From a virus (Duplodnaviria; Heunggongvirae; Uroviricota; Caudoviricetes), in the IMG/VR virus record IMGVR_UViG_2548876868_000025: DNA of 10,643 nucleotides; one strand, 5' to 3'. The position numbers and the translations under genes were made by a program. Shown here in pieces: positions 1 through 10,643 of the stretch. The notes beneath the pieces were generated by a model that was not told the DNA's origin, did no database searches, and saw nothing but the letters and a program-made list of their open reading frames with translations. The first letter of the stretch is position 1. Each line of letters opens with the position of its first letter.

Positions 1-291
1 TTACCGCCGTAACCGCTCCGGCTTCTTCCAGTGGTACGTAATTTTTGCTTTTTCCCTGTACGTCTGCACGCGGCGACGGTAGGCCAGCATTTCAAGAACG
101 CGGATCCGTATGTTGCGCATATCCACATCATTAAGCTGGATACCATCACGGCGCATCACCTCAGCAACCACACGCGCGTAATTTTCGGCGGTCACGCTGT
201 CCGGCTGCGCGGTCTGTTCGTCAGCCTGCTGGCTGATTCCGGCGACGCGGCGGATTAATCCCAGTAGTTCGGCTTCTGTCATTGTGCCCAC
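1..291 (-). CDS. hypothetical protein (93-96 aa)
   Basis: Complete ORF with stop at 1-3; start is GTG at 291 or ATG at 282 (MTEAELLGLIRR...). No family recognised. Lies just beyond cos1. Confidence 0.4.
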   Translation of the reverse strand: MGTMTEAELLGLIRRVAGISQQADEQTAQPDSVTAENYARVVAEVMRRDGIQLNDVDMRNIRIRVLEMLAYRRRVQTYREKAKITYHWKKPERLRR

Positions 292-317
292 ATCGCTCTG
301 ATAGTCTGGTGTCGTAG

Positions 318-537
318 GGTCCTTCCTGGAATTATGGCCCGTTACGGGGCGGCGACCTCGCGCGTTTTCGCTATTTATGAAAATTTTTAGGGAAAAAGCA
401 GATCCGTTCTTCTTCTCTGTAACAGAATGTTTAACAATGAAAATATTAAAAAAAGAAAGGATCTTACACGAGGCATTTTAGCCAGAAAATGCCATTATCA
501 GATCCTTTCTCATTTTTGTTCAATAATTGCGCGTCTG
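318..537 (+). other. cos1: lambda-type cohesive-end site (cosN 347-358, followed by a lambda-like cosB region)
   Basis: Plus strand reads cgttacg GGGCGGCGACCT cgcgcgttttcgctatttatgaaaattttt, nearly identical to the phage lambda left end as recalled. Downstream blocks ccgttcttcttc, aaaagaaagga, tcctttctc and tttttgt mirror lambda cosB R-site/IHF-region sequence. Confidence 0.75.
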
Positions 538-1080
538 TTACTCGCCTTTCTTCTGTAGCAACTTTTCCGGTACGTTTCCGGTTGTTTCTTTCAAGTAATC
601 AGCCAGTATCTGTGGGAGGTTGTCGGCAACTCTGGCACTGGCATTACAGGCTTTAACCACTTCCCTTTTAAGCCTATCCAGCATGGCGGGGGTAATCTGT
701 GGGAAGCTCCTTTGCATAGTAAGCGGGAGGCTGTCCATGATTGATGAAATCTGACTCGCCAGCTTTGAAAGCGCGTACAGGCAAAACTCAGTATCAATCA
801 CGTTACCGCGATCGCGCTCGTTTTTAAGTTCCTGCGCCTCCGCCTGTACTGTCAGTAATCTGATCCTGACTCGTAAGAGTTCATCATCATCAATCTCGCC
901 TTTGTCGTTTGTAAGCTGGCTAATTGCATTGTTAACCCTATTGTCTATCACGCTGGCAACATCATAAAACGCCTCACGGCCTTTACGTTCAACGGGTGTC
1001 ACTCCCCACTTGTCGAACGCTGTCGCACTTACACGGCAGCTTTTCGCCATGTTTTTTTTGTTCATCAGGTGCGATTTCAT
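538..1080 (-). CDS. terminase small subunit, lambda Nu1-like
   Basis: 180 aa. The C-terminal half aligns by eye to lambda Nu1 (RLLTVQAEAQELKNERDRGNVIDTEFCLYALSKLASQISSIMDSLPLTMQRSFP versus RLTRAQADAQELKNARDSAEVVETAFCTFVLSRIAGEIASILDGLPLSVQRRFP). N-terminal NKK...W motif is in a similar position; alternative start is ATG at 1065. A cos site lies about 135 bp upstream, as in lambda. Confidence 0.85.
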   Translation of the reverse strand: MKSHLMNKKNMAKSCRVSATAFDKWGVTPVERKGREAFYDVASVIDNRVNNAISQLTNDKGEIDDDELLRVRIRLLTVQAEAQELKNERDRGNVIDTEFCLYALSKLASQISSIMDSLPLTMQRSFPQITPAMLDRLKREVVKACNASARVADNLPQILADYLKETTGNVPEKLLQKKGE

Positions 1081-1120
1081 TAATACACCAACTTAATTAC
1101 TGCTTCAGGTTGGTGTATTG
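1081..1120 (-). promoter_or_regulatory. Inverted repeat (11-12 bp arms, 16-nt spacer) abutting the terS start codon
   Basis: taATACACCAAC (1081-1092) and GTTGGTGTATtg (1109-1120) are reverse complements. On the minus strand the 3' arm ends 2 nt before the terS ATG. Confidence 0.5.
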
Positions 1121-1180
1121 TTTGCATCTTTCCCTTTTCATTCATAAAGATAGAGCAAACAACAAAACCACCACCGCCAA

Positions 1181-1256
1181 CCCGAAAAGGCTCATAAATA
1201 GCGAAAATCCGCGAGGTCGCCGCCCCGTAACGGGTCCATATGCCGGAAAGGACCCG
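1181..1256 (-). other. cos2: lambda-type cohesive-end site (cosN 1214-1225 on the minus strand), upstream of and colinear with the Nu1-like gene
   Basis: Minus strand reads acgggtcctttccgg...cgttacg GGGCGGCGACCT cgcggattttcgctatttatga. The core 23 bp is identical to cos1 and the upstream flank resembles the lambda right end (ACGGGTCCTTTCCGG). Confidence 0.75.
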
Positions 1257-1257
1257 T

Positions 1258-1280
1258 AAAAAAAGCCGGATTTCTCCGGC
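1258..1280 (-). terminator. rho-independent terminator after the 137-aa gene
   Basis: Hairpin GCCGGAtttcTCCGGC (1265-1280) followed on the minus strand by a 7-U run (1258-1264), 5 nt after the stop at 1286-1288. Confidence 0.7.
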
Positions 1281-1285
1281 CTGTC

Positions 1286-1699
1286 TCAGATGGTTTTCAG
1301 TATGCGATCGATGTCGCGGTCATCGCCCGGCTTTCTGCCATCGTATGCCATGCCTGCTGATACGGCTTGCGGGCTGTGCATGTCCATAAAGTTTTCAAAG
1401 GCTGCGGTAAGCTCTGGTGCAACCTTCTGGCGTTCCTGCTCTATGGTCATGCTAAGGATGCTTTTAGCCGTACCAACATCGATACAAGGCACGTTTGCCA
1501 TTGCACGTAACAGCGGCTGATAGTCGCCAGATTCATCAAGCGCCATAATCGCATCAGAGCGCGGCTTGTCCTGCTCTTCCAGTTTGTTGAGTTGATATAC
1601 GGCCTCGTAGGTTGATAACCCTCTGTCAGCCATTGCCCGCGCTTCGGCTTTAAATTTACTCGCCAGCGGTAGCGTCATGATGCTTTCATTCGTTGCCAT
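1286..1699 (-). CDS. hypothetical protein (137 aa), last gene of the capsid operon
   Basis: ORF tightly packed after the gpD-like gene (12-bp gap) and followed by a terminator. Sits where lambda has FI, but no similarity to a known family could be confirmed. Confidence 0.55.
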   Translation of the reverse strand: MATNESIMTLPLASKFKAEARAMADRGLSTYEAVYQLNKLEEQDKPRSDAIMALDESGDYQPLLRAMANVPCIDVGTAKSILSMTIEQERQKVAPELTAAFENFMDMHSPQAVSAGMAYDGRKPGDDRDIDRILKTI

Positions 1700-1711
1700 C
1701 GTTCCCCCTGC

Positions 1712-2056
1712 TTATCGCGCCAGCGGCTGAACGGATACGCCAGAACCCGCAAAGGCGGCGCATTTTTTCGCATCGGTGTCGACGCTCTCAGGCCAGTTAA
1801 CGGCGGCGATATTAAATATCCCCGTCTTATAGCACTGTGCTGATTTCTGCGTCGACGTGTCAACGGGGTACGAGGTCAGATAAACAGCCTTGCCAGATTC
1901 CTGACCATCCCACGGCTTAAACTCGCCATTGTCCGCCAGCATCAGCGGGGTAAATTCCTGAATAACGCCAGCATCAGCGGCAAAATGTACCAGCGTCGTT
2001 GATACCTGCTGACTGCCTGCAAATAACTCAATGTATGGAGTGTTCATAGAATCCAC
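1712..2056 (-). CDS. head decoration protein, lambda gpD-like
   Basis: 114 aa. TPLMLADNGEFKPWDG...CYKTGIFNIAAVNWPESVDTDAKKCAAFAGSGVSV parallels lambda gpD TPLMLDTSSRKLVAWDG...[35 protein letters not shown]. Only 2 bp separate it from the capsid gene. Confidence 0.8.
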   Translation of the reverse strand: MDSMNTPYIELFAGSQQVSTTLVHFAADAGVIQEFTPLMLADNGEFKPWDGQESGKAVYLTSYPVDTSTQKSAQCYKTGIFNIAAVNWPESVDTDAKKCAAFAGSGVSVQPLAR

Positions 2057-2058
2057 CG

Positions 2059-3114
2059 TTAACCAATTTTGACGGTAACAAATTTTCGAATATCTGCCGG
2101 AACAGGCTGCGGTGCGCTGTGTGTCTGCACGTACTCAATCGCCGGATCGCCGTCTTCAATCCAGTTTTTCGGGTAAAACATGTTTTGCGTTGCGCCCGTT
2201 CTTACCGCTTCCTGTTCCATAATCGCACCATAGGCCACCAGCCCTTTATTGTTGGTGTTGCCCAGGACCAGCAAATCAGGCTCAAGGAAATATTTTTCTG
2301 TGCCGTCGCTGTCAGTGTATTTGCCGGAATAGACGATAAGGGCCAGATCACCAAGATAGCCTTTAAAGCTCACCACTTCGCCCAGGTTTTTACATGCCAG
2401 CTCTGCGGCGGATTCTGAACCACGGGAGAGATCGTACAGTTCACGGAATTTTTTAAAGCTGCGTAACATGCGCCATACATCAACGCCCATAATCATGACG
2501 TTGGCGGGGCAACCTGCCTGATCTGCGTATAGTTCAATGTCATATATTGGGTCGTGTATGTCTTTATCCTGCTCAGACCATTTTTTACCGTCGGCCTGCT
2601 CTATGATGTTTTTTTCCGGTATCTTCCAGTCGATTTCATAGCGTTCTATGCCTTCGCCCTCAATGATGTTTTTTCCGGTCGTTACCGCATTCACCGCCAG
2701 CCATTCAACGCGTGCCTTAATGGCGTTTATCTGGCGGCGCATGTTGCCAGTAATCAGGCGCATACGGCGGTAGGTAGGATCGTTAAGCTGTGCCGGATCT
2801 TCTCCAGCCATGCGCATTATTGTTTTTAATGGATCGATTTCGTGTTTTGGCTTCATGTAGCCAGGGCGGATAATGCTGGTTTCGTACCCTTTATCGCGCT
2901 GAACCTGGCTGCCAACCATAGGCGAACAAAACGCCGACATAGTGACTTCTTCAATATCCAGGTTATCTAACATGATGTCCTGCGTGTTGAATGTCGCCAC
3001 GTTCGGGAAAAACAGCGCGGTAAACAGCGGACTAAATTTAAATTCCGCAATATCCTCGCGATTCAGGTACGCGAAAAGCTGGTGTGTGTTAAGTGCTATT
3101 GCTTTGACTGCCAT
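2059..3114 (-). CDS. major capsid protein, lambda gpE family
   Basis: 351 aa. Multiple blocks match lambda gpE: FKFSPLF/FKFDPLF, RPGYMKPKHEIDP/TPGYVKPKHEVNP, EDPAQLNDPTYRRMRLI/EDPQNLADPAYRRRRII, YPKNWIEDGDPA/YPKNWVTTGDPA. Length matches gpE (341 aa). Confidence 0.9.
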   Translation of the reverse strand: MAVKAIALNTHQLFAYLNREDIAEFKFSPLFTALFFPNVATFNTQDIMLDNLDIEEVTMSAFCSPMVGSQVQRDKGYETSIIRPGYMKPKHEIDPLKTIMRMAGEDPAQLNDPTYRRMRLITGNMRRQINAIKARVEWLAVNAVTTGKNIIEGEGIERYEIDWKIPEKNIIEQADGKKWSEQDKDIHDPIYDIELYADQAGCPANVMIMGVDVWRMLRSFKKFRELYDLSRGSESAAELACKNLGEVVSFKGYLGDLALIVYSGKYTDSDGTEKYFLEPDLLVLGNTNNKGLVAYGAIMEQEAVRTGATQNMFYPKNWIEDGDPAIEYVQTHSAPQPVPADIRKFVTVKIG

Positions 3115-3320
3115 TATTCGCCCCCATAATTTTTGTGCATCCCAAGCGCCGCAAGTAAATAAGATCGCACAAGTGAACCTATCGACGGCTCCGGCGTCAT
3201 CAGCGGATCCAGTCCAGCCGCAACGCCAGCTTCATAGTTTTTTTTGTGGCGCTGCTTGAGCACCTCCACGATTTCGGGGCTTATGTACACCGAAACACCG
3301 CCTTTTTTCTCTTCAGCCAT
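3114..3320 (-). CDS. small protein (68 aa) translationally coupled to the capsid gene; possible ribbon-helix-helix fold, or a small scaffold-like factor
   Basis: TAATG stop/start overlap with the capsid gene. SD-like AGAGGAA upstream of the ATG at 3320. VSVYISPEIVEVLKQ resembles an RHH beta-strand plus helix; function unassigned. Confidence 0.5.
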   Translation of the reverse strand: MAEEKKGGVSVYISPEIVEVLKQRHKKNYEAGVAAGLDPLMTPEPSIGSLVRSYLLAALGMHKNYGGE

Positions 3321-3349
3321 AGTAAGAAATTCCTCTTCGACTAAAAAAA

Positions 3350-3410
3350 TTATAACTGGATGTTTATCCAGTCCTGATTATAATCAGAATTGCATTTTAT
3401 GCAATGATAT
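3350..3410 (-). promoter_or_regulatory. Candidate sigma70 promoter of the capsid operon, overlapped by three palindromes
   Basis: On the minus strand: TTGCAT, a 16-bp spacer, then TATAAT. Palindromes TTGCATtttATGCAA (3391-3405), CTGATTATAATCAG (3374-3387, containing the -10) and CTGGATgtttATCCAG (3356-3371, near the expected transcription start). Confidence 0.5.
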
Positions 3411-3485
3411 TGAGTTATGTTGCAAATTATGAAATGATTATCCCGATCACGAACGCCAGTGCATCCAAAAACCTCATATGCAAAA

Positions 3486-3523
3486 GCCCGATAAGAACCC
3501 TCTGACCTTATCGGGCTTTTTTT
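3486..3523 (+). terminator. rho-independent terminator oriented on the plus strand, with no obvious plus-strand gene upstream
   Basis: Perfect 10-bp stem GCCCGATAAG / CTTATCGGGC (3486-3495 and 3507-3516) followed by 7 T (3517-3523). Confidence 0.6.
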
Positions 3524-3529
3524 GGGCGC

Positions 3530-3551
3530 AAAAAAGCCGGATTGCTCCGGC
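3530..3551 (-). terminator. rho-independent terminator after the 74-aa gene
   Basis: Hairpin GCCGGAttgcTCCGGC (3536-3551) followed on the minus strand by a 6-U run (3530-3535). Confidence 0.7.
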
Positions 3552-3571
3552 TATGTGTGCTGTGTGCTGGC

Positions 3572-3796
3572 TCAGTCTCTGATCTCTTTCAGAAATTCTA
3601 TCAATGCATCTATCTGTTCAGGATTTACCGCCAGCATTTCACCGGATAGAGCACATCTCACAAAACCATGCTGATCCTTTTCAATCAGTGCGCCCGTCTC
3701 CAGGAATGCGCGGTAATCATTGATGCTCATCGTCTCCATGTTGTCAGCATGGTATTTATCACGCTGTTTTAATATCTCATCAAATTTCATCGGCAT
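3572..3796 (-). CDS. hypothetical protein (74 aa), stand-alone transcription unit
   Basis: ATG at 3796 with a GAGGAA SD 9 nt upstream. Bracketed by terminators at 3893-3915 (upstream) and 3530-3551 (downstream). No family recognised. Confidence 0.55.
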   Translation of the reverse strand: MPMKFDEILKQRDKYHADNMETMSINDYRAFLETGALIEKDQHGFVRCALSGEMLAVNPEQIDALIEFLKEIRD

Positions 3797-3892
3797 TGTT
3801 TTTTTCCTCTGTTGTGTCTGTTTGTTTCAGATAGTAACTATGCCTGACCGTGACGAAAACCCGGTAATGCGCCATACCGTTTCAACTGGTGC

Positions 3893-3915
3893 AAAAAAAG
3901 CCGGATTTCTCCGGC
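3893..3915 (-). terminator. rho-independent terminator after the 90-aa gene
   Basis: Hairpin GCCGGAtttcTCCGGC (3900-3915) followed on the minus strand by a 7-U run (3893-3899); the stop codon is at 3923-3925. Confidence 0.7.
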
Positions 3916-3922
3916 TGTTTGA

Positions 3923-4195
3923 TTAGCTGTCTTGGTAATTGCGCCATATTTCATCACCAGCACCATCTATACCCATTTCGGCATAAGTGCGATCGACTGC
4001 CTTTTTCAGGTCTCCGAAATTATCCGGCGGCTCCGGTGCCCTCTGTGCCTTCCTTGAACATTCCAGCCGTCGCATCGTGATGTGATGCCGTTCCTTGTCT
4101 GTCTCCACCAGCTGCATGACTTCACCCCATCGCGCCGCCGCCCTCCGGTAAAAGCCTTTCGCCTCCAGTTCCTCCGCTATGCGGTCATGTACCAT
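3923..4195 (-). CDS. hypothetical small protein (90 aa); weak resemblance to ANR-type small regulators
   Basis: ATG at 4195 preceded by GAGGGGG. The longer 130-aa reading frame would overlap ssb, so the short start is preferred. Motif IAEELEAKGFYRRAAARWGEV resembles an ANR-like helical pattern, unverified. Confidence 0.45.
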   Translation of the reverse strand: MVHDRIAEELEAKGFYRRAAARWGEVMQLVETDKERHHITMRRLECSRKAQRAPEPPDNFGDLKKAVDRTYAEMGIDGAGDEIWRNYQDS

Positions 4196-4205
4196 CGTCA
4201 CCCCC

Positions 4206-4616
4206 TCAGAACGAAATATCATCACCGTAAGGGTCATCGCCTCCCGCTGGTGGCTGATTACCCTGTGTGCCTGTGGTTTTGCGTCTGTTCCCGCCTGGAC
4301 GTGCCGCGCGGGCACTGATTACGCTGTCTGCGATAACCTGCCAGCCCTGCCGCGTTTCTCCGTTCTGTCCGGTCCACTGGCTTACCTGCATCGTGCCGGA
4401 TACGCTGGCAACATCGCCTTTTTGATGTTTAGCCAGGAAGTCGGCCTGTTTGCCAAATGCGATGACCGATAACCATAACGTCGCCTGTCCGTCCTGTGCC
4501 TGGCTGCATGGCAAAGATACCGCCATACGCGCCAGCGTCATCGGTGTGCCCTTGCTGGTCTGTTTTACCTGCGGGTCGTCCACCAGCCGCCCGTAAGCGG
4601 CTATCTGTGCCGTCAT
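4206..4616 (-). CDS. ssb: single-stranded DNA-binding protein
   Basis: 136 aa. OB-fold-like core (LWLSVIAFGKQADFLAKHQKGDVASVSGTMQVSQWTGQNGETRQGWQVIADSV), Gly/Pro/Gln-rich linker and acidic C-terminal tail DDPYGDDISF, comparable to the E. coli SSB DDDIPF tail. ATGA overlap with the upstream gene. Confidence 0.85.
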   Translation of the reverse strand: MTAQIAAYGRLVDDPQVKQTSKGTPMTLARMAVSLPCSQAQDGQATLWLSVIAFGKQADFLAKHQKGDVASVSGTMQVSQWTGQNGETRQGWQVIADSVISARAARPGGNRRKTTGTQGNQPPAGGDDPYGDDISF

Positions 4617-4882
4617 AATTCCACCTCTCCGGTTTTAACGTTGATGGTTGTTACCTGTTCCGCTTCGGCAATCTCCCGTTCTGTCAACGTGGCAAAGTTT
4701 GCCGCTGCTGTGGTCATGAATGCGCTTATCAGGTCGGGATGTTCCTTCGCGTATCCTTCCCCTGCGTGGCGGTCTATTACCCTGATTGCCACCTTTAAGG
4801 CGTGCTCTGTCATGTCTAACGCTTTATATTTCGGCTCTGTTCTGTCTCTGCGCATTTTGGTTATCTCCTCACTCATGCTCAC
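4613..4882 (-). CDS. hypothetical protein (87-89 aa), translationally coupled to ssb
   Basis: Start is GTG at 4882 or ATG at 4876, with GTGAGG upstream. No family recognised. Confidence 0.55.
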   Translation of the reverse strand: MSMSEEITKMRRDRTEPKYKALDMTEHALKVAIRVIDRHAGEGYAKEHPDLISAFMTTAAANFATLTEREIAEAEQVTTINVKTGEVEL

Positions 4883-5068
4883 TTTTACGCCTCACTTTTT
4901 AAAGCGTCTCGCTTCGTCTCACTTGAGATTTTTGTGTTTTGTATGCGCATGTTTCATAAGTGTTTTTTTTACGCCTCACTTTTGAGCATGTATACAGGTG
5001 AGAAAGTGAGCAATCGTGTTAATATTTTGTAAAAACCTCACCATTACTCACTTTTGCTACTCACTTTT
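4878..5068. repeat. Iteron array (candidate replication origin) immediately 3' of the replicase gene
   Basis: CTCACTTTT direct repeats at 4878, 4891, 4975, 5047 and 5060, a variant CTCACTTGA at 4918 and an inverted copy in GTGAGAAAGTGAG (4998-5010). An AT-rich tract lies between them (4921-4970). Confidence 0.6.
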
Positions 5069-6465
5069 TACAGTGGTCCTACATCATCACCATCAATGTA
5101 AATCACGGCGTCTTTTTCCAGTTTGGCTAACCATCGCCGCATATTTTTCACGTCATACCCAAGCCGTTTCATGTCATCACGTAACAGCGGGATCGTGCAC
5201 TTGTCGCCGTTCTGTGTACGTGAACGGATGCACCCCCATAGCGCGGTATGGTTTTCCGTCTTGTTGCCTGCCTCCTCGATGCGCTCCAGTTCAACGGGAG
5301 GGCGCGGCTTATCCACCACCACCAGCGACGTGATTAACTCCCCGTCAGCGTCGGTAAAAAGCTCCACCACGCGTAAGTCATATGCGGCTTCTTTGAGTTC
5401 CTCCGCGTCCTTCATTTTGGTGCATGAGATAACCAGCGCTTCGCTGCCTGCGTCCTCCCTGCGTATCCGGTATTCAGCGTCCAGTGATGCACGAAATGCA
5501 CTGGAACCACGCGCCCCCTTTGTTTCATCCTTGCCGGAATGGTGAACCACCAGCACCGTGGCCCCTGTGCGCCGTTTCAGTTCGTCACAACCACGGATAA
5601 ACGCCCCCATATCACGGGAATCATTTTCATCATTACCACCAAAGCAACGCGCCAGCGTATCCAGAATAATCATGCGTACAGGTTTACCCGTTTCCCGCTC
5701 CACCTGACGGGCAGCGATAACCATTTCATCAACATCAAACGGGGCAGCCGGAAAGATGGGACGGTTTACCAGGTACAGATTTTTCACCTGCTCACCGTGC
5801 ACAACTTCCCACGCTCTCACGCGACGCGGTACACCAATACCGCCTTCACCAACCACATAGAGGACCGCACCATGTGCAACCCTGCGGCCTCCCCAGTGGC
5901 GACCCGTTGAAACGTGACACGCCCACGAACCAGCAAGGAACGACTTATATGAACCGCTCGCCCCGTATATGCTGCATAGCGACGATGCCGGAATAATCCC
6001 CTTTACCACGTAATCTAATTGCGTGTCGTATCCGGCAGATCCAACGCTCATCGGTAGCGTGGTTTTTCGCTGGTGGCTCAGGCTTTCCCCGCGTTCCCAT
6101 GTCTCCCTAAGCCGTGGAAGCTGGTCGCTCCATTCCTCCAGCAATTCGAAATTTTCAGAAAACAGGCGCGCTTCCTGGACTCCTGCGATTGCCAGTTTCG
6201 TGGCGATGGTTAACAACTGCACTTCGTCAATATTTCCGGCACGTATCACTTTCGCCCTGAACCGACCTTTATCAACAATCTGCAAGTTATCCAGTTCGCT
6301 TAACTGATAACGCCCCAGGTAAACGGGAGGGACTGGATCGCCTGCTTTTTTGGCCTGTGCAATGATGTAGTGCTCTGCAAATGAGTGAGCATTATCACCC
6401 GCAAAAATAACCGCTTCGGTGTGTTTATCTTTCGGTAACAGTTTTACATTCGGTGCCAGTTTCAT
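5068..6465 (-). CDS. replication protein with a RecA-like/AAA ATPase core (primase-helicase-type replicase of P4/PICI-like elements)
   Basis: 465 aa. Walker A GASGSYKS and Walker B-like MIILDT followed by an acidic stretch; unassigned N-terminal domain of about 150 aa; C-terminal DNA-binding-like tail. ATGA overlap with the upstream gene. Confidence 0.85.
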   Translation of the reverse strand: MKLAPNVKLLPKDKHTEAVIFAGDNAHSFAEHYIIAQAKKAGDPVPPVYLGRYQLSELDNLQIVDKGRFRAKVIRAGNIDEVQLLTIATKLAIAGVQEARLFSENFELLEEWSDQLPRLRETWERGESLSHQRKTTLPMSVGSAGYDTQLDYVVKGIIPASSLCSIYGASGSYKSFLAGSWACHVSTGRHWGGRRVAHGAVLYVVGEGGIGVPRRVRAWEVVHGEQVKNLYLVNRPIFPAAPFDVDEMVIAARQVERETGKPVRMIILDTLARCFGGNDENDSRDMGAFIRGCDELKRRTGATVLVVHHSGKDETKGARGSSAFRASLDAEYRIRREDAGSEALVISCTKMKDAEELKEAAYDLRVVELFTDADGELITSLVVVDKPRPPVELERIEEAGNKTENHTALWGCIRSRTQNGDKCTIPLLRDDMKRLGYDVKNMRRWLAKLEKDAVIYIDGDDVGPL

Positions 6466-6761
6466 TTTTTACCCCTGAATCCGTTAATCATGGTTTTCAG
6501 CTTCTGGATGTTTGCCCGTGCCCTGGCGTTGCTGGTGGGCACGTTATGCGGCGCGGTCTGTACCAGAGAAAAATCACGCCGGAACTGATAAACAGGCATC
6601 ACGCAATCATATTCGTAACCTTCACGGCGGTAAGTTACGCACCGTCCCGCCACGCCCTTAATCATTACCGTGCCGCCGTACTGGTCGCGGTAAATATCAC
6701 CGCGCGTAAATTTAGGGTGAGTGTTGCCACTGGCAGTTAAGCCAGAATATTTAAGTTTCAT
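6462..6761 (-). CDS. hypothetical protein (99 aa), coupled to the replicase gene
   Basis: ATG at 6761; stop overlaps the replicase start (ATGA). Beta-rich-looking sequence; no family recognised. Confidence 0.55.
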   Translation of the reverse strand: MKLKYSGLTASGNTHPKFTRGDIYRDQYGGTVMIKGVAGRCVTYRREGYEYDCVMPVYQFRRDFSLVQTAPHNVPTSNARARANIQKLKTMINGFRGKK

Positions 6762-6766
6762 TATTT

Positions 6767-7000
6767 TTATTCTCCGGTGTGCTGTTCTTTATATCTGTCG
6801 TGCAATAGATCTATTTCTTGCAGTTCCATTATTACAGGCTCAAGTAGAGTTATTAATGCCGTGGCAATCCGTGATTTTTGTTTGTCTCGTTCATTATCGC
6901 CAAGCGTTTCAAGCCATATGCGCAACATTTCCATCATGATTTCACTGTGAGAAAGTGCAAGAAATGCGCGGTCTATTGTTTCGAGGTAAATATCACGCAT
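6767..7000 (-). CDS. hypothetical protein (77 aa)
   Basis: ATG at 7000 (MRDIYLETIDRAF...), preferred over the TTG at 7039 given in the ORF track. Helical-looking; no family recognised. Confidence 0.45.
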   Translation of the reverse strand: MRDIYLETIDRAFLALSHSEIMMEMLRIWLETLGDNERDKQKSRIATALITLLEPVIMELQEIDLLHDRYKEQHTGE

Positions 7001-7001
7001 A

Positions 7002-7151
7002 TTAATTACCGTCCGTTGTTTTATTTTCTTTCGTGCCAAGTAAGAAAAAGGCCGCTCTTATCAGTTCGGATATTGCAGAAAGCGCATCAGCCGCATCATC
7101 AGATACGCCGGAAAATTCCTGTTTCAGGGAATTAAAACGATCATCACGCAT
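7002..7151 (-). CDS. hypothetical small protein (49 aa)
   Basis: ATG at 7151 overlaps the upstream stop (ATGCGTGA); its stop lies 1 nt before the next ATG. The longer version from 7199 would overlap the upstream gene by 56 nt. Could be non-coding. Confidence 0.3.
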   Translation of the reverse strand: MRDDRFNSLKQEFSGVSDDAADALSAISELIRAAFFLLGTKENKTTDGN

Positions 7152-7365
7152 AACCCCCCCCATTTTCACAATCAGCAATAAGAATATTTTTAGCGTCATT
7201 CAGCGACCGCGTGGCGGTGTATCGGATACATTCCAGGGCGAACAATGTGTATTCTTCCCGTTCTTCCTTTTGTGCAAGCCCTGCTGTGCATTCAATATCA
7301 ATAAGTGCGTGCATCAGCGTAGTGAGCGCGGCGGCTGCTGCGTCCGGTGTGGTTTTATTGTGCAT
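7144..7365 (-). CDS. hypothetical protein (73 aa)
   Basis: ATG at 7365 with AGGGGA 7 nt upstream; overlaps the last codons of the Icd-like gene B. No family recognised. Confidence 0.45.
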   Translation of the reverse strand: MHNKTTPDAAAAALTTLMHALIDIECTAGLAQKEEREEYTLFALECIRYTATRSLNDAKNILIADCENGGGYA

Positions 7366-7528
7366 AGGTTTTCCCCTGACGAATACGGGCGACAAAAATC
7401 AGATGTGCGTGCGGCAACCTGGCGCGGGCTTCGCGTTCAGTGGCTGCGGTAACGGTGTAAATATCAATGCTGCTGTGGTGGCACTGCATAAAGCGCCAGA
7501 CAAAGTAAGGGCGTGCGAATACAGCCAT
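7355..7528 (-). CDS. Icd-like small protein, copy B (57 aa)
   Basis: ATG at 7528 with GGAG 8 nt upstream. FVWRF...TEREARARLP...FVARIRQG pattern, paralogous to copy A; TEREAR motif recalled as typical of P4-type Icd-like proteins. A longer in-frame reading from 7822 cannot be excluded. Confidence 0.55.
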   Translation of the reverse strand: MAVFARPYFVWRFMQCHHSSIDIYTVTAATEREARARLPHAHLIFVARIRQGKTYAQ

Positions 7529-7814
7529 GTGAAAGGCTCCCAGATGAAATTTAAGGAGTCTCGCTACTACGCTGTCAAACATGGTGGCGAGACGTAACAG
7601 GGTTGACAGACTGGTCATCTGGAAACCAGCGAGCGCAAAGGCTCCCCCGTTACGCCCCGCCATAATGCGGGTATGGGTAGGTTTACGGACACAAAAAAAC
7701 CGCTTATCGGATATGGGCGGCTGTCCGCCAGATGTATTCAGGCTGTCAAACCCGGTCGCCATGTGGGCGACGGGTGAAGCATACAGCCCCGTGATAATTT
7801 TTTGCAAGCGGTTT

Positions 7815-8012
7815 TTACGCATGATGTGACCCCTGACGAATACGAGCGGCAAATACAGCAACACAACCTGACGGGCAACGGCTACGCGCTTCGCGTTCCG
7901 TCCAGGCGGTTACGTGGATGATTTGAGATTCTCCGGCACTCAGGGCCAGAAAACGCCACACAAAGGCCGTTTGTGTGTGTACAAGGTGTGGTATATGATT
8001 TACGGCAACCAT
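7815..8012 (-). CDS. Icd-like small protein, copy A (65 aa)
   Basis: ATG at 8012 with GGAG 4 nt upstream. MVAVNHIPHLVHTQTAFVWRFLALS...WTEREARSRCP...VFAARIRQG aligns with copy B. Confidence 0.6.
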   Translation of the reverse strand: MVAVNHIPHLVHTQTAFVWRFLALSAGESQIIHVTAWTEREARSRCPSGCVAVFAARIRQGSHHA

Positions 8013-8141
8013 AACGGCTCCTAGTTTACGTTGTTGGTTAGAAGCCCCGTTACTGCTCCTACAGTGCGGGGCTTTGCTTTTTGTGTTGATTGTGTGTAAT
8101 GTGTCATTACACATAAATACATTACATGAGGTGTAATTAAC
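8013..8141. promoter_or_regulatory. Divergent control region between the Icd-like operon and the RHH gene, with operator-like inverted repeats and a hairpin
   Basis: Inverted repeats GTGTAATG-tgt-CATTACAC (8094-8112) and ATTACA-tgagg-TGTAAT (8121-8138, overlapping the RHH SD). GC hairpin GCCCCG...CGGGGC (8044-8072) followed by a T-rich tract on the plus strand. Confidence 0.5.
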
Positions 8142-8321
8142 GTGTCAACACACAAAAACGAAAGGCGTGGTAATCCTCCGTTCCAGTTCCGTTTAGATCC
8201 TGACTTACGGGAAAAGATGGAAAAGGCACAACAACAGGACGGCGATGATTCTCTTGCTGCCTGGATAAAGCGAATAATCCGCAAAGAATTACAGCAACGC
8301 GGCATAGAACCCAAAGGATAA
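8142..8321 (+). CDS. Arc/ribbon-helix-helix family DNA-binding protein (candidate repressor)
   Basis: 59 aa, GTG start with GAGG 10 nt upstream. PPFQFRLDPDLREKMEKAQQQDGDDSLAAWIKRIIRKEL fits the RHH beta-strand/helix/helix pattern. Not in the ORF track (below its length cutoff). It is the only convincing plus-strand gene. Confidence 0.7.
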   Translation: MSTHKNERRGNPPFQFRLDPDLREKMEKAQQQDGDDSLAAWIKRIIRKELQQRGIEPKG

Positions 8322-8644
8322 AAACTATCAGCGCCGTGGTGTGAGGAACTCCGGCGCATTGCTTTACAGGCGCACACAATGACCAACGAAGAATCAACCA
8401 AAAAAACATCACCTGCACGAAAAAGACGACGCAGAAAGAAAGAGCATGAATCAGAACGATTCGCGCCGTGTTCTTTTGCCCTTGAGAAGTACCTTAAAGA
8501 ATACTCATCAAAGGAGAGAGCTTCGCAGTTATGGAAACGCACTGAAACAGACTGATAGCATTGCCCACCAGCCTGATAGCGGCTATCATGCCCTGGCTTA
8601 TGTTTGTTGACACATAATGCGCAGCGGGTTAATTGTTCAGAAAG

Positions 8645-8671
8645 GCGGCTCCATATCGGGGCCGCTTTTTT
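8645..8671 (+). terminator. rho-independent terminator oriented on the plus strand, ending the RHH transcription unit
   Basis: 8-bp GC-rich stem (8645-8652 paired with 8658-8665, one G-U pair), 5-nt loop, then 6 T (8666-8671). The minus-strand tail is weaker (CTTTCTG). Confidence 0.65.
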
Positions 8672-8697
8672 CGTGTTCGTCATATGAGATACACCCG

Positions 8698-8904
8698 TTA
8701 AGCAGCCGTTACGCGCGCTTCCTGTTCGCGTTCTTTCATCCAGGCGATTACGTCATCCTCATACCATCCCCGACGGCGTAAACCAACACGAAAACCCTGC
8801 GGGAATTCTCCGGCGTTGATCATGCTTTGCAGCGTGCTGTCTGCCTTGATGTGGATAAGTTTTTTTACTTCCTGGCGAAAGATGACTTTTTTGATTGCTT
8901 CCAT
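8698..8904 (-). CDS. alpA: AlpA-family transcriptional regulator / excisionase-like protein
   Basis: 68 aa. ...STLQSMINAGEFPQGFRVGLRRRGWYEDDVIAWMKERE fits the AlpA/Vis pattern (HTH, G-FP, conserved W, C-terminal W). AAGG SD upstream. Located just downstream of int, as in P4-like and PICI elements. Confidence 0.85.
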   Translation of the reverse strand: MEAIKKVIFRQEVKKLIHIKADSTLQSMINAGEFPQGFRVGLRRRGWYEDDVIAWMKEREQEARVTAA

Positions 8905-8981
8905 CGTGATTTACCTTGTGAATCCGGTGTATTCCGGTGACAAATACGGTAAATCATCGAATATGGGTAAAAACAGTTCCC

Positions 8982-9008
8982 ACCGTTTTTAAACGGTTAT
9001 AACCGTTT
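8982..9008. promoter_or_regulatory. Palindromic operator-like site upstream of alpA
   Basis: Perfect 16-bp palindrome AACGGTTATAACCGTT (8992-9007) overlapping an ACCGTTT-tt-AAACGGT inverted repeat (8982-8997); three ACCGTT-type half-sites about 90 bp upstream of the alpA start. Confidence 0.4.
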
Positions 9009-9037
9009 TTTATGTTGATGATTTGAAAGGGAATTAT

Positions 9038-9060
9038 AAAAAAAGCGGCATTTCTGCCGC
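9038..9060 (-). terminator. rho-independent terminator downstream of int and the 76-aa ORF
   Basis: Hairpin GCGGCAtttcTGCCGC (9045-9060) followed on the minus strand by a 7-U run (9038-9044). Confidence 0.65.
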
Positions 9061-9072
9061 TTTCAGGGAGTG

Positions 9073-9303
9073 TTAACGCCACTTTCTTGGCCTGCCTCCG
9101 GTTTTCATGGATGCCGGACGTACTACCCTATCAATACTTACCGCCAGATTTCTGGAAGCCCCGCGGGATACCAGAAAATCTACTACCTGTTTTTTTGATG
9201 GGGCTGTCGTTCTGTCCTCCGGATCGTAGGTTGACCAAAATTCATGCTGAACCATCAGGGCCAGTTGCAGCCCGTCGCAATTGCATCTGATATTTTTTTG
9301 CAT
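9073..9303 (-). CDS. hypothetical protein (76 aa), doubtful
   Basis: ORF between int and alpA with a terminator 12 nt after its stop, but no convincing SD and an unconvincing composition. Could be non-coding 3' region of int. Confidence 0.25.
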   Translation of the reverse strand: MQKNIRCNCDGLQLALMVQHEFWSTYDPEDRTTAPSKKQVVDFLVSRGASRNLAVSIDRVVRPASMKTGGRPRKWR

Positions 9304-9401
9304 CTTAACGGTTTCATGTTTCGCGGCCTTGTCGTTAAATTTGGTGCAATTATACGACGGTTTTGCATGGTTTTCGTAGTTTTTACTGGTTTTCTGTACA
9401 G

Positions 9402-10643
9402 CTACACGGCCCGAATACCCCTTTTACCACTGGCAAGGGTTACGCCCGTTGCCGCCGCCTCGACAAATTCGCCCCACCAGCGCATAAGCACAATGCGTTT
9501 TTCTATGTAGTTGCTCCGGTTGTATGCCCGTCTCACTTCGTTGGTGTCCACGTGGGCTAGTGCGGCCTCGATTACGTCCGGCTCAAATCCTTCTTCGTTC
9601 GCTGCGGTGCTGAATATGGCGCGCATACCGTGAGAAACCAGAATCCCGCCAAACCCCATCCGCCGCAATGCTGCGTTTGCGGTCTGGCTGTTCATAGGCT
9701 GCCGTGGGTCTTTCAGGCTCGGGAAAACATAATCGCGGTGGTGGCTGATTGGTTTCATGGCCTCCAGTACCGCCATGGCCTGACTACAAAGCGGGATAAC
9801 GTGATCACGCCGCATCTTCATGCGTCCGGCGGGTATCGTCCATTGTTGCGCGTCCAGGTCGATTTCTTCCCAGCGTGCTGACGATGCTTCAACCGGACGG
9901 GTTACAGTCAGTAACTGCCATTCAATCAGTAATCTGGTCTGCCGTTCTGTTGCCGATACTGATAAAGCCTGCATAAGCTCCGGCAACTGTTCGGGGCGGA
10001 TTGTTGGCATATGTTTTTTTACAGGGGAGGGGAACGCCTTACGCACATTCATAGCCGGATTGGTATCAATCAGCCCACTGTTGGCGGCGTAATCCATTAC
10101 CTCATTAATTCGCTGCAAAACCCGCTTTAGTGTTTCCAGGTTGCCACGTTCCTTGATGGGGGTAAGCACCTCAACGAACCTGCGAGCGGTCAGGGTGTCT
10201 ATTGGCGTGTTGCCGATGAACGGGAATACATATTTTTCCAGCGAACGCCAGATGTCTTTAATCGTGTTGGGGGCCAGATTCTGGCTGATTTTCACCTGGT
10301 ACCATGCCGCCGCCACATTTTCGAACGTGTTCCCTTGTCTTCGGGCCTCTGTCTCTCTTTTTTGCCTCTCGTGGTCCTGCGGGTCAGTTCCGGCACTGAT
10401 TAACGTCCTGTACTCGCTACGGCGTTTTCTGGCATCAGCCAGGGAAACATCTTCAAGCGATCCAAAACTCAGCAATATTCTTTTTTTGTCCGATGGTCGG
10501 TAGTAGGAAAATCTCCAGAGTTTTGATCCAGACGGTTTGACCAAGAGAAAAAGCCCTCCGCCGTCCTGCAGGGTGTACTCCTTTTGCGCTGGTCTGGCTG
10601 CTTTGATCTGCACTGTGGTTAATGGGTGTGTTTTTCTCGCCAT
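9402..10643 (-). CDS. int: tyrosine site-specific integrase, P4 family
   Basis: 413 aa. N-terminal arm-type DNA-binding region (LTTVQIKAARPAQKEYTLQDGGGLFLLVKPSGSKLWRFSYY) and C-terminal catalytic region with HGMRAIFST (H-x-x-R) and a tyrosine in RRAYNRSNY. The start codon is the last three bases of the window. Confidence 0.95.
   Translation of the reverse strand: MARKTHPLTTVQIKAARPAQKEYTLQDGGGLFLLVKPSGSKLWRFSYYRPSDKKRILLSFGSLEDVSLADARKRRSEYRTLISAGTDPQDHERQKRETEARRQGNTFENVAAAWYQVKISQNLAPNTIKDIWRSLEKYVFPFIGNTPIDTLTARRFVEVLTPIKERGNLETLKRVLQRINEVMDYAANSGLIDTNPAMNVRKAFPSPVKKHMPTIRPEQLPELMQALSVSATERQTRLLIEWQLLTVTRPVEASSARWEEIDLDAQQWTIPAGRMKMRRDHVIPLCSQAMAVLEAMKPISHHRDYVFPSLKDPRQPMNSQTANAALRRMGFGGILVSHGMRAIFSTAANEEGFEPDVIEAALAHVDTNEVRRAYNRSNYIEKRIVLMRWWGEFVEAAATGVTLASGKRGIRAV

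What the first reader, a model, noticed from the sequence alone, without database searches (positions are those of the whole stretch)
1..10643. Satellite-type backbone joined to a lambdoid capsid and packaging module
The integrase/AlpA/Icd-like/replicase/iteron-origin arrangement is what P4-like satellites and PICIs carry. Those elements usually remodel the helper capsid with scaffold-type proteins rather than encode gpE/gpD homologues, and capsid-forming PICIs are described with their own portal, protease, terS and terL. Here only a major capsid protein, a decoration protein and a Nu1-type TerS are visible, next to lambda-type cos. This combination may be an undescribed or poorly described satellite architecture that depends on a lambdoid helper for TerL, portal and tails.
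Basis: inference. Interest (0 to 1): 0.7.

Follow-up and report, generated by a model that had tools for sequence, protein, structure and literature searches.

The report
Known E. coli phage satellite (PICI)
This is an ordinary member of a well-described family of small E. coli chromosomal islands (PICIs) that ride in lambda-like phage particles; its capsid, decoration and small-terminase genes are standard for that family, not a new architecture.

Summary
The window is 100% identical to an ~11.6 kb island in E. coli 7_33_46A. The island sits at tRNA-Pro between yejM and yejO, with no terL, portal, protease, tail or lysis genes nearby, so it is a satellite and not a prophage.

The architecture is not undescribed. 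The window is syntenic with EcCICFT073, the prototype Gram-negative PICI: capsid protein 95%, decoration protein 96%, next gene 96%, last gene 88% identical. It is 94% identical over 6 kb to the O157:H7 EC4115 island catalogued as a PICI in 2018. Integrase, AlpA-type regulator, replicase plus origin, capsid gene and small terminase are the five published PICI core components.

It differs from the prototype by module swaps:
- a full Nu1-type TerS replaces RppA, inside a cassette bounded by two inverted lambda cosN sites;
- a RepA-type helicase replaces the primase;
- the integrase and attachment site differ.

Side observations:
- one cos site has a complete phage-type cosB matching real lambdoid prophages;
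- the TerS is a mosaic;
- the 137-aa protein resembles the phage 21 scaffold;
- a C4 antisense RNA lies in the Icd region.

Verdict: already known, low interest.

The parts
9402..10643 (-). Tyrosine integrase (413 aa), P4-int type with an arm-binding domain. It targets tRNA-Pro.
   Evidence: Pfam PF00589, PF22022 and PF13356. NCBIfam PRK09692 7.9e-167. Only 24% identical to the EcCICFT073 integrase.
9073..9303 (-). 76-aa ORF of unknown function, followed by a strong terminator hairpin at 9041-9064.
   Evidence: No family hits. Terminator scan.
8698..8904 (-). AlpA-type HTH regulator/excisionase. In the PICI family this is the helper-activated inducer.
   Evidence: Pfam AlpA 0.0036. PHROG 66 1.9e-7. 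29% identical to EcCICFT073 AlpA. The role is taken from PMC6092414.
8142..8555 (+). Two small divergently oriented ORFs: a 59-aa Arc/YlcI-YnfO-like protein at 8142-8321 and a 58-aa protein at 8379-8555.
   Evidence: PHROG 228 Arc-like repressor 2.1e-6. NCBIfam YlcI_YnfO 5e-4. The same pair is annotated in CFT073.
7815..8012 (-). First Icd-like ORF.
   Evidence: NCBIfam phage_ICD_like 5.8e-18.
7735..7784 (-). Element resembling the a1/b1 target of the C4 antisense RNA.
   Evidence: Rfam RF03163, 45.7 bits, just below the gathering score of 46.7.
7580..7667 (-). C4-type antisense RNA (family of the P1/P7 immI regulator), lying inside the annotated long Icd-like ORF.
   Evidence: Rfam RF01695, 71.6 bits against a gathering score of 45, full-length match.
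7355..7822 (-). Second Icd-like ORF. Only its C-terminal ~45 aa match the Icd-like domain, and the upstream part overlaps the C4 RNA.
   Evidence: NCBIfam match to residues 107-149 of 155. Overlap with the Rfam hits.
6462..7395 (-). Small conserved PICI ORFs: 83 aa (RefSeq annotates a frameshifted pseudogene at about 7002-7365, overlapping it), 90 aa, and a DUF4222 protein.
   Evidence: Pfam DUF4222 2.1e-23. PHROGs of unknown function. RefSeq annotation. 89% DNA identity to EcCICFT073.
5068..6465 (-). Replication initiator/helicase (RepA/AAA_25, 465 aa).
   Evidence: PF13481 8.5e-44. 80% identical to the EC4115 PICI Rep. Shares only its N-terminal ~130 aa (45% identity) with the EcCICFT073 primase.
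4878..5066 (-). Replication origin: seven AAGTGAG iterons around an AT-rich core, directly downstream of rep.
   Evidence: Pattern count of 8 in the window (7 of them here) against 0.74 expected. Sequence read. The position matches the PICI ori described in PMC6092414.
3923..4882 (-). 89-aa ORF, SSB (4206-4616) and a PerC-family regulator (3923-4195), ending at the terminator at 3899-3916.
   Evidence: PF00436 1.7e-16 and PF06069 1.2e-42. Terminator scan.
3114..3796 (-). 74-aa and 68-aa conserved ORFs. The 68-aa gene overlaps the capsid gene start. A terminator lies between them at 3535-3552.
   Evidence: PHROG 1957 and 3255. Terminator scan.
2059..3114 (-). Major capsid protein, lambda gpE family (351 aa).
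   Evidence: PF03864 5.1e-49. 43% identical to lambda gpE. At most 48% identical to any phage in the collection. 95% identical to EcCICFT073 c1499. dN/dS 0.09-0.15.
1712..2056 (-). Head decoration protein, lambda gpD family.
   Evidence: PF02924 3.7e-18. 37% identical to lambda gpD. 96% identical to EcCICFT073 c1500. dN/dS 0.05-0.11.
1286..1699 (-). 137-aa protein homologous to the C-terminal part of the phage 21 scaffold (gp6, the Nu3 counterpart). Followed by a terminator at 1263-1282.
   Evidence: PHROG 53 1.9e-8. tblastn hits to Nu3/scaffold genes. 37% identity over 70 aa to phage 21 gp6, pairwise E 1e-9. No alignment to lambda Nu3 itself. 96% identical to the EcCICFT073 gene.
1081..1255 (-). 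cos1: cosQ (1249-1255), cosN (1214-1225) and a satellite-type cosB without phage R repeats, upstream of and co-oriented with terS.
   Evidence: It is conserved together with terS in EC4115 and CREC-532. It contains TTGTTGTTT, as does the R3 region of N15.
538..1080 (-). Nu1-type small terminase (180 aa), occupying the position that rppA has in EcCICFT073.
   Evidence: PF07471 1.4e-22. PHROG 57 7.8e-53. No similarity to RppA. The DNA-binding domain is 61% identical to N15 gp1, and the C-terminal 43 aa are 52% identical to PhiR5_1 Nu1.
317..537 (+). cos2, inverted relative to cos1: cosQ (317-323), cosN (347-358) and a complete phage-type cosB with R3 (400-410, +), R2 (454-464, -) and R1 (500-510, +).
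   Evidence: AGATCCKTTCT occurs three times against 0 expected, in lambda order and orientation. Position-by-position match to lambda cos. The same R sequence is found in the cos of a lambdoid prophage of E2348/69 and in the SerU-LTIIb prophage.
1..291 (-). Last conserved PICI ORF (93-96 aa), unknown function.
   Evidence: 88% identical to the last EcCICFT073 gene. PHROG 1561.

Best explanation
The window is nearly the whole of a classical Gram-negative phage-inducible chromosomal island (PICI) of the E. coli EcCICFT073 lineage. The island is ~11.6 kb and integrated at tRNA-Pro.

Shown here:
- Gene content, island boundaries and the lack of other phage genes.
- Near-identity of the capsid, decoration and scaffold-like genes to the prototype PICI.
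- Modular replacement of the packaging cassette, the replicase, the regulatory region and the integrase.

Inferred from published work on EcCICFT073: a lambdoid helper activates alpA. The island then excises using Int, replicates from its own Rep and iteron origin, and its concatemers are cut at lambda-type cos sites. The helper's terminase large subunit packages the DNA into helper-built heads with helper tails.

Inferred here for this variant:
- Instead of Rpp, which needs the helper TerS, the island makes its own full-length Nu1-type TerS.
- Its N15-like DNA-binding domain reads the satellite-specific cosB of cos1.
- Its lambdoid-type C-terminus recruits the helper TerL.
- cos2, in the opposite orientation, copies the full R3-I1-R2-R1 cosB of one class of lambdoid phages. 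Helpers of that class could therefore package the island with their own TerS.

The capsid, decoration and scaffold-like genes are under purifying selection, so they are functional. Their role is unknown: deleting the orthologues in EcCICFT073 gave no phenotype.
For: Context and boundaries:
- 100% identical copy in NZ_CP074819.1, lying between tRNA-Pro/yejM and yejO with no further phage genes.

Similarity to known PICIs:
- Synteny with EcCICFT073, with 88-96% protein identity in the capsid module.
- 94.3% DNA identity over window 1-6076 to the EC4115 PICI.
- All five published PICI core components are present (definition in PMC10085698).

Packaging signals:
- Two exact lambda cosN sites with cosQ at the lambda spacing, the same layout as in EcCICFT073.
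- In EcCICFT073 both cos sites were shown to be functional (PMC6092414, read).
- The homology breakpoints against EcCICFT073 fall at 393/394 and 1183/1184, 30-35 bp inside each cosN. The cosB2-terS-cosB1 block is therefore a swapped cassette.
- The three R sites of cos2 match the cos next to the terS-terL-portal genes of an E2348/69 prophage.

TerS and distribution:
- The TerS is a mosaic of domains.
- The cassette is present at >=80% coverage in 478 of 5426 complete E. coli genomes.
- The host genome has 7 places matching the cosQ-cosN region, two of them in the island. Resident lambdoid helpers are therefore plausible.

Selection:
- dN/dS is 0.05-0.15 for the capsid, decoration and TerS genes.
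Against: - No experiment exists for this element: induction, excision, packaging and transfer are all inferred from a relative.
- Which cos site the island TerS uses is inferred only from co-inheritance and a short N15-like motif. That motif lies 8-9 bp further from cosN than in N15, and cosN-to-R3 spacing is critical in lambda (PMC9026076).
- The C-terminal similarity to any known TerS is only 52% at best, so the TerL partner is not identified.
- The AlpA assignment is below the Pfam gathering score.
- One small ORF is frameshifted in the RefSeq annotation, so full functionality is not guaranteed.
Confidence: 0.85

Rival explanations
1. One reading: a new, undescribed satellite class, intermediate between classical PICIs and capsid-forming PICIs. 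It would build its own capsid shell from its gpE-, gpD- and scaffold-like proteins and borrow only portal, protease, TerL and tails.
For: - Three head genes are present and under purifying selection.
- They are at most 48% identical to any phage capsid protein, so they are an old satellite lineage rather than a recent capture.
- The only lambda- and phi80-helper transfer entries in the published Table 1 are for EcCICFT073 c1499::cat, in which the capsid gene is replaced. The other marker was c1501::tetA. The capsid-size tests may therefore not have probed an intact module.
Against: - The architecture is not new. It is the prototype PICI architecture (PMC6092414) and matches the published PICI core set (PMC10085698).
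- The related island in CREC-532 has an HTH gene in place of the scaffold-like gene, so the trio is not fixed.
Confidence: 0.08
2. A decayed remnant of a lambdoid prophage that retains a few head genes and cos.
For: Lambda-family capsid, decoration, TerS and cos sequences are present. RefSeq annotates one frameshifted small ORF.
Against: - The island has precise boundaries at a tRNA.
- It has its own integrase, replicase and iteron origin.
- The gene order E, D, scaffold-like, cos, terS differs from the phage order.
- The same module set occurs at different chromosomal sites with different integrases.
- There is strong purifying selection, and the cassette is in 478 genomes.
Confidence: 0.02
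3. A P4-like satellite that exploits a P2-like helper.
For: It has a P4-type integrase, an AlpA-like regulator, Icd-like ORFs and an antisense-RNA module reminiscent of P4/P1 immunity.
Against: No Psu, Delta, Sid or P4 alpha primase domains were found in any ORF. The cos sites are exact lambda cosN with lambda cosQ spacing. The head genes belong to the lambda family.
Confidence: 0.02

Closest known systems
EcCICFT073, prototype Gram-negative PICI of E. coli CFT073 (Fillol-Salom et al. 2018, PMC6092414; 2019, PMC6739421)
   Same: - Same gene order after the replicase: small ORF, SSB, PerC, 68-aa ORF, capsid, decoration, 137-aa protein, cos1, packaging-specificity gene, inverted cos2, last ORF.
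- Protein identity of 88-96% in the capsid module.
- Two inverted exact lambda cosN sites.
- DUF4222 and the other small ORFs are 89% identical at the DNA level.
   Different: - The packaging cassette is swapped: a 180-aa Nu1-type TerS with different cosB sequences replaces the 144-aa RppA.
- A RepA/AAA_25 helicase replaces the primase, with only the N-terminal ~130 aa shared.
- The integrase (24% identity) and attachment site differ: tRNA-Pro here, roxA/phoQ there.
- The C4 RNA was not detected at the gathering score in the CFT073 sequence searched, which starts inside that island.
PICI of E. coli O157:H7 EC4115 (11.2 kb, listed in the supplement of PMC6092414)
   Same: Same architecture including RepA helicase (80% identity), capsid, decoration, 137-aa protein, TerS (97% identity) and both cos sites. 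94.3% DNA identity over window 1-6076.
   Different: The integrase, AlpA and attachment site differ (roxA/phoQ locus). The Icd region differs, and no C4 RNA was detected at the gathering score.
Capsid-forming PICIs, e.g. EcCIEDL933 (bioRxiv 10.1101/2022.09.08.507074)
   Same: Same int-alpA-rep backbone logic. The satellite encodes its own capsid protein and TerS.
   Different: cf-PICIs also encode a protease, portal, head-tail connectors, HNH and TerL, and make their own small capsids. None of these genes is in or next to this island.
SaPI-type packaging redirection by a satellite TerS, and SaPIbov5 Ccm (as described in PMC6092414 and PMC6739421)
   Same: A satellite-encoded TerS that recognises the satellite's own packaging site and uses the helper TerL. 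A satellite-encoded capsid-protein homologue.
   Different: Those are Gram-positive elements. Their TerS works with headful (pac) packaging, whereas here packaging is lambda-type cos. Ccm makes small capsids, which has not been seen for the E. coli relative.
Lambda, 21 and N15 terminase/cos systems (reviewed in PMC9026076)
   Same: cosQ-cosN-cosB layout. cos2 has R3-I1-R2-R1 at lambda positions. TerS has a winged-helix DNA-binding domain plus a C-terminal TerL-binding region.
   Different: There is no TerL. There are two inverted cos sites. The R sequence CAGATCC(G/T)TTCT differs from those of lambda and 21. The TerS is at most 45% identical to any phage TerS in the collection.

Membership tests
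PICI (classical, Proteobacterial) | Integrase at one end of a small island (about 10-20 kb) with its own attachment site | tested here: met
   Integrase. The island is ~11.57 kb, running from the tRNA-Pro 3' end to a degenerate repeat of it.
PICI (classical, Proteobacterial) | Regulation module (alpA, merR or stl) | tested here: met
   AlpA-like HTH: Pfam 0.0036, which is sub-threshold; PHROG 66 1.9e-7; 29% identical to EcCICFT073 AlpA. Met, but weakly.
PICI (classical, Proteobacterial) | Primase/replicase module with an adjacent origin | tested here: met
   AAA_25 RepA-type protein, with seven iterons immediately downstream.
PICI (classical, Proteobacterial) | Capsid morphogenesis gene | tested here: met
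   gpE-family capsid protein, gpD-family decoration protein and a scaffold-like protein.
PICI (classical, Proteobacterial) | Small terminase or another packaging-redirection gene | tested here: met
   Nu1-type TerS flanked by cos sites.
PICI (classical, Proteobacterial) | Absence of other structural and lysis genes (terL, portal, tail, holin) | tested here: met
   None in the window or within 12 kb of flanking sequence.
PICI (classical, Proteobacterial) | Helper-phage-dependent induction, packaging, high-frequency transfer and interference with the helper | not testable with these tools
   Shown experimentally only for the relative EcCICFT073 (PMC6092414, PMC6739421).
Rpp-type cos PICI (EcCICFT073 subgroup) | Rpp protein that heterodimerises with the helper TerS | tested here: not met
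   No similarity between the window TerS and RppA. Sequence searches of solved structures with the TerS and the 137-aa protein returned only chance-level hits, none to an Rpp or Nu1 entry. The rppA slot is occupied by a full Nu1-type TerS.
Capsid-forming PICI | Own TerL, portal, prohead protease and head-tail connectors | tested here: not met
   Absent from the window and its flanks. Definition read.
P4-like satellite | Psu, Delta, Sid and alpha primase-helicase core genes, with a P2-type cos | tested here: not met
   No such domains in any ORF. cos is lambda-type.
Lambdoid prophage | Contiguous complete head, tail, lysis and immunity modules | tested here: not met
   The flanks are the chromosomal genes yejO, narP and ccm on one side and tRNA-Pro, yejM and yejL on the other.

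The most novel reading that the evidence does not exclude
The most novel reading not excluded has two parts. First, the conserved gpE-, gpD- and Nu3-like trio may be a working mini-morphogenesis module. With suitable helpers it would co-assemble with the helper portal and protease to give satellite-specific heads, possibly smaller ones. Second, the Nu1-type TerS with its own cos1 may make packaging independent of the helper TerS, while cos2 is a decoy or backup copy of a helper cos. This would place the TerS-type E. coli PICIs between classical and capsid-forming PICIs. Published negative results do not fully exclude it. The markers used were c1499::cat, which replaces the capsid gene, and c1501::tetA, which by gene numbering is probably the scaffold-like gene; that assignment is my inference.
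Probability: 0.15. Interest if true: 0.6.

Novelty: already known. Interest (0 to 1): 0.22.

Why it matters
As a discovery it matters little. The element belongs to a family described since 2018, and the same packaging cassette is in about 9% of complete E. coli genomes, including O157:H7 and O26:H11 strains.

Two open questions in that field become sharper with this variant.

1. Why do these islands carry two cos sites? PMC6739421 asks this explicitly. Here one site is a full copy of a real lambdoid cosB, and the other travels with the island's own TerS.

2. What are the conserved capsid, decoration and scaffold-like genes for? They are under strong purifying selection, yet no phenotype has been found.

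The TerS-for-Rpp swap also predicts a testable difference: this variant should not need the helper TerS.

Tried and rejected
- tRNA scan of the window: none found. The tRNA lies just outside the window.
- Megablast against the phage collection: only short cos and cosB matches, so this is not a known phage.
- Sequence search of solved structures with the 137-aa protein and with TerS: only chance-level hits.
- TerS against RppA: no similarity, so I rejected the idea that the TerS is a long Rpp.
- The 137-aa protein against lambda Nu3: no alignment. The homology shows only against the phage 21-type scaffold and PHROG 53, so I call it scaffold-like, not proven.
- The broad homologue search for the 137-aa protein returned only close E. 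coli relatives. No distant profile could be built from them.
- Direct-repeat search for the attachment core at 14 nt or more missed it because the distal copy is degenerate. I found it by reading the sequence.
- Rfam on the CFT073 and EC4115 loci: no C4 RNA at the gathering score, so that RNA is not a family-wide feature. The CFT073 locus searched starts inside that island, so its left end was not covered.
- PADLOC on the ten small ORFs: no defence genes.
- Literature search for PICI plus Nu1 found only the Murialdo and Feiss review. I found no experimental study of a Nu1-type PICI TerS in this library, which lacks most subscription journals.
- Prophage-remnant and P4-like readings: rejected, as set out under the rival explanations.

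Full report
**1. Observation**

Every gene of note lies on the minus strand.
- Tyrosine integrase, 9402-10643.
- AlpA-like HTH, 8698-8904. The Pfam match is weak. It is backed by a PHROG match and by 29% identity to the AlpA of EcCICFT073.
- Two Icd-like ORFs.
- DUF4222 protein and RepA/AAA_25 replicase, 5068-6465.
- SSB and PerC.
- gpE-family major capsid protein, 2059-3114; gpD-family decoration protein, 1712-2056; Nu1-family small terminase, 538-1080.
- Seven AAGTGAG iterons directly downstream of rep, in 4878-5066, against 0.74 expected in the whole window.

There are two lambda-type cos sites, not one. Both are exact copies of GGGCGGCGACCT, at 1214-1225 (minus strand) and 347-358 (plus strand). 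They are inverted and flank terS. Each has GGGTCCT 30 nt upstream, which is the lambda cosQ spacing.

**2. Context**

The window is 100% identical to a stretch of the chromosomes of E. coli 7_33_46A and DEC9B. In 7_33_46A:
- The integrase start lies 220 bp from tRNA-Pro, next to yejM.
- The last ORF lies about 800 bp from the yejO pseudogene.
- No terminase large subunit, portal, protease, tail or lysis gene occurs within 12 kb on either side.
- The 3' end of the tRNA (TGGTCGGCACGAGAG) recurs in degenerate form (TGGCCACGAGAG) 11,572 bp away.
- CGTATAACTAAA-type repeats sit inside both ends and look like arm-type integrase sites.

**3. What it is**

By chance the first stretch of CFT073 that I fetched contained EcCICFT073, the prototype Gram-negative PICI. 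After the replicase the gene order is the same, gene for gene:
- small ORF, SSB, PerC, 68-aa ORF;
- capsid (351 aa in both), decoration, 137-aa protein;
- cos, a packaging-specificity gene, an inverted cos, and a last 93-aa ORF.

Protein identities are 95% (capsid), 96% (decoration), 96% (137-aa protein) and 88% (last ORF).

The published record already covers this architecture.
- Fillol-Salom et al. [quoted passage not shown] Deleting either changed neither interference nor transfer. [quoted passage not shown] The island has two functional cosN sites (PMC6092414).
- Mageeney et al. report a capsid gene in 21 of 29 reference Gram-negative PICIs (PMC10111431).
- De Sousa et al. define five PICI core components: integrase, regulator, primase-replicase, capsid morphogenesis and small terminase (PMC10085698). 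The window has all five.
- The O157:H7 EC4115 island is listed as an 11.2 kb PICI in the 2018 supplement. It has the same architecture including RepA helicase and TerS, and is 94.3% identical to window 1-6076.

The claim of an undescribed architecture is therefore not supported.

**4. How the window differs from the prototype**

A BLAST map shows homology to EcCICFT073 in window 1-393, 1184-3564, 3972-4816, 6389-7360 and 8329-8670. The swapped blocks between these are:
- 394-1183: cosB2, terS and cosB1.
- 4817-6388: the origin and the catalytic part of Rep. A RepA helicase replaces the primase, and only the N-terminal ~130 aa are shared.
- 7361-8328: the Icd region.
- 8671-10643: AlpA and the integrase, which is 24% identical.

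The breakpoints of the packaging cassette fall 30-35 bp inside each cosN. The conserved cosN-proximal DNA therefore looks like the recombination substrate; this is an inference.

The 180-aa TerS has no similarity to the 144-aa RppA. The TerS cassette is common. It is present at >=80% coverage in 478 of 5426 complete E. coli genomes, including O157:H7 and O26:H11. The EcCICFT073 rppA cassette reaches that coverage in only 53 genomes.

**5. Mechanism**

From the EcCICFT073 experiments, I infer the following for this element:
- A helper phage activates alpA.
- Int excises the island, and Rep and the origin replicate it.
- Concatemers are cut at cos and packaged by helper terminase into helper particles.

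*TerS.* The variant-specific part is my inference from sequence. The TerS is a mosaic:
- Its middle part is 66% identical, and its C-terminal 43 aa 52% identical, to the Nu1 of the lambdoid phage PhiR5_1. The C-terminal region is the one that binds TerL in lambda (PMC6739421, PMC9026076).
- PhiR5_1 also shares the cosQ-cosN flank at 96% identity.

*cos1.* It lies upstream of terS in the phage arrangement.
- It has no phage R repeats.
- It carries GGTGGTGGTTTTGTTGTTTG, which is conserved in EC4115 and, with one change, in CREC-532.
- That stretch contains the TTGTTGTTT also found in the N15 R3 region, though 8-9 bp further from cosN.
- In more distant islands terS and cosB1 stay together while cosB2 is replaced.

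*cos2.* It aligns position by position with lambda cos.
- It has three copies of AGATCC(G/T)TTCT, at bp 54-64 (+), 108-118 (-) and 154-164 (+) from the start of cosN. That is the R3, R2, R1 order and orientation. Zero copies are expected by chance.
- A TAAC..AATGTTT element sits at the position of the lambda and phage 21 IHF site.
- The same R sequence occurs in the cos immediately upstream of terS-terL-W-portal in a lambdoid prophage of EPEC E2348/69, and in the SerU-LTIIb prophage.

I therefore propose that cos1 is the island's private site, read by its own TerS, which then recruits the helper TerL. cos2 would be a copy of one helper class's cos, usable by that helper's own TerS. Unlike the Rpp-type islands, this variant should not need the helper TerS. 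The host genome has seven places matching the cosQ-cosN region, two of them in the island, so resident lambdoid helpers are plausible.

**6. The head genes**

- The capsid protein is 43% identical to lambda gpE over its full length, and at most 48% identical to any phage in the collection.
- The TerS is at most 45% identical to any phage TerS.
- Between island copies, dN/dS is 0.09-0.15 for the capsid gene, 0.05-0.11 for the decoration gene and 0.15 for terS.

These are old, selected satellite genes, not recent captures or decaying remnants.

The 137-aa protein matches PHROG 53 (head maturation protease, C-terminal end) at 1.9e-8. It also matches the C-terminal part of the phage 21 scaffold gp6: 37% identity over 70 aa, pairwise E 1e-9. 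It does not align with lambda Nu3 itself. Strong terminator hairpins at 3535-3552 and 1263-1282 bracket a separate unit made of the 68-aa ORF, capsid, decoration and scaffold-like genes. Its function remains unknown.

One caveat on the published negative results. For the lambda and phi80 helper strains, Table 1 of the 2018 paper lists only EcCICFT073 c1499::cat, in which the capsid gene is replaced. The other marker was c1501::tetA. By gene numbering c1501 is probably the scaffold-like gene; that assignment is my inference.

**7. Rivals**

- *Prophage remnant.* Rejected because of the precise tRNA boundaries, the island's own replicon, the non-phage gene order, its occurrence at different chromosomal sites with different integrases, and the purifying selection.
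- *P4-like satellite.* Rejected because no Psu, Delta, Sid or alpha domains are present and cos is lambda-type.
- *Capsid-forming PICI.* Rejected because terL, portal, protease and connectors are absent.

**8. Verdict**

It is a classical E. coli PICI of the EcCICFT073 lineage carrying the common TerS-type packaging cassette. Novelty: already known. Interest is low. It comes only from the unanswered questions about the two cos sites, the TerS-for-Rpp swap and the conserved head genes.

Noticed in passing
window 7580-7667 and 7735-7784 (minus strand): A full-length C4 antisense RNA (Rfam RF01695, 71.6 bits against a gathering score of 45) and an a1/b1-target-like element (45.7 bits against 46.7) lie inside the ORF that RefSeq annotates as a 155-aa Icd-like protein. 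Only the last ~45 aa of that ORF match the Icd domain. The real layout is probably a1b1, then c4, then a short icd, as in P1/P7 immI. No C4 hit at the gathering score in the CFT073 or EC4115 sequences searched; the CFT073 locus starts inside that island.
   Followed up: partly
window 1286-1699 (minus strand): The 137-aa 'hypothetical' protein between the decoration gene and cos1 is homologous to the C-terminal part of the phage 21 scaffold (Nu3 counterpart). It does not align with lambda Nu3. Some NCBI records name it 'phage head-tail connector protein'.
   Followed up: partly
window 347-537 (plus strand); L010 3489-3680; L007 1190-1350: cos2 carries a complete R3-I1-R2-R1 cosB with R sequence CAGATCC(G/T)TTCT. 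The same R sequence occurs in the cos of a lambdoid prophage of EPEC E2348/69 and of the SerU-LTIIb prophage. The published discussion of PICI cos sites that I read concerns cos1 and states that no phage-type cosB is apparent.
   Followed up: yes
L002 8100-8308 (EcCICFT073 cos2): The second cos of EcCICFT073 also appears to have three repeats, ATGTCCGGTT. The first two sit at the R3 and R2 positions and orientations; the third is in the same orientation as the second. They resemble the CATGTCGG repeats of the 21-type helper prophage in the same genome. This comes from reading the sequence only.
   Followed up: no
window 538-1080 (minus strand): The TerS is a domain mosaic. Its DNA-binding domain is 61% identical to N15 gp1. 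Its middle part (66%) and C-terminal part (52%) are closest to PhiR5_1 Nu1. It also has a 12-aa C-terminal extension that none of the compared phage TerS proteins have.
   Followed up: yes
window 5068-6465 (minus strand); L002 2241-3995: The RepA-type helicase here and the primase of EcCICFT073 share a 45%-identical N-terminal ~130 aa fused to unrelated catalytic domains. This suggests a common N-terminal module of unknown role.
   Followed up: no
window 9041-9064, 3899-3916, 3535-3552, 1263-1282 (minus strand): Four terminator hairpins divide the island into transcription units; three share the stem GCCGGAG(A/C)AATCCGGC and the fourth (9041-9064) is a more divergent relative. One lies directly in front of cos1.
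   Followed up: no
L001 11290-11301 and 22862-22876; L001 11362-11387 and 22672-22731: The distal attachment repeat is a damaged copy of the tRNA-Pro 3' end, as reported for PICIs in PMC10111431. CGTATAACTAAA-type repeats inside both island ends look like arm-type integrase sites.
   Followed up: partly
L011 1943-5009 (E. coli CREC-532 island next to clpS): In a more distant TerS-type island, a 127-aa HTH protein replaces the scaffold-like gene. Its second cos has a different cohesive-end sequence (GGGCGGGAGCAT) behind a normal cosQ.
   Followed up: no
window 3923-4195 (minus strand): PerC-family regulator in an island carried by a bovine isolate and by the human isolate DEC9B; the related cassette occurs in Shiga-toxigenic O157:H7 and O26:H11 strains. 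According to PMC11773190, the PerC-like genes of EcCICFT073 and EcCIEDL933 had no effect on LEE1, while that of EcCIMP1 represses it. There is also a weak NCBIfam hit to the ANR negative-regulator family.
   Followed up: no
window 7002-7365 (minus strand): RefSeq annotates this small hypothetical gene as frameshifted in the identical genome copy.
   Followed up: no
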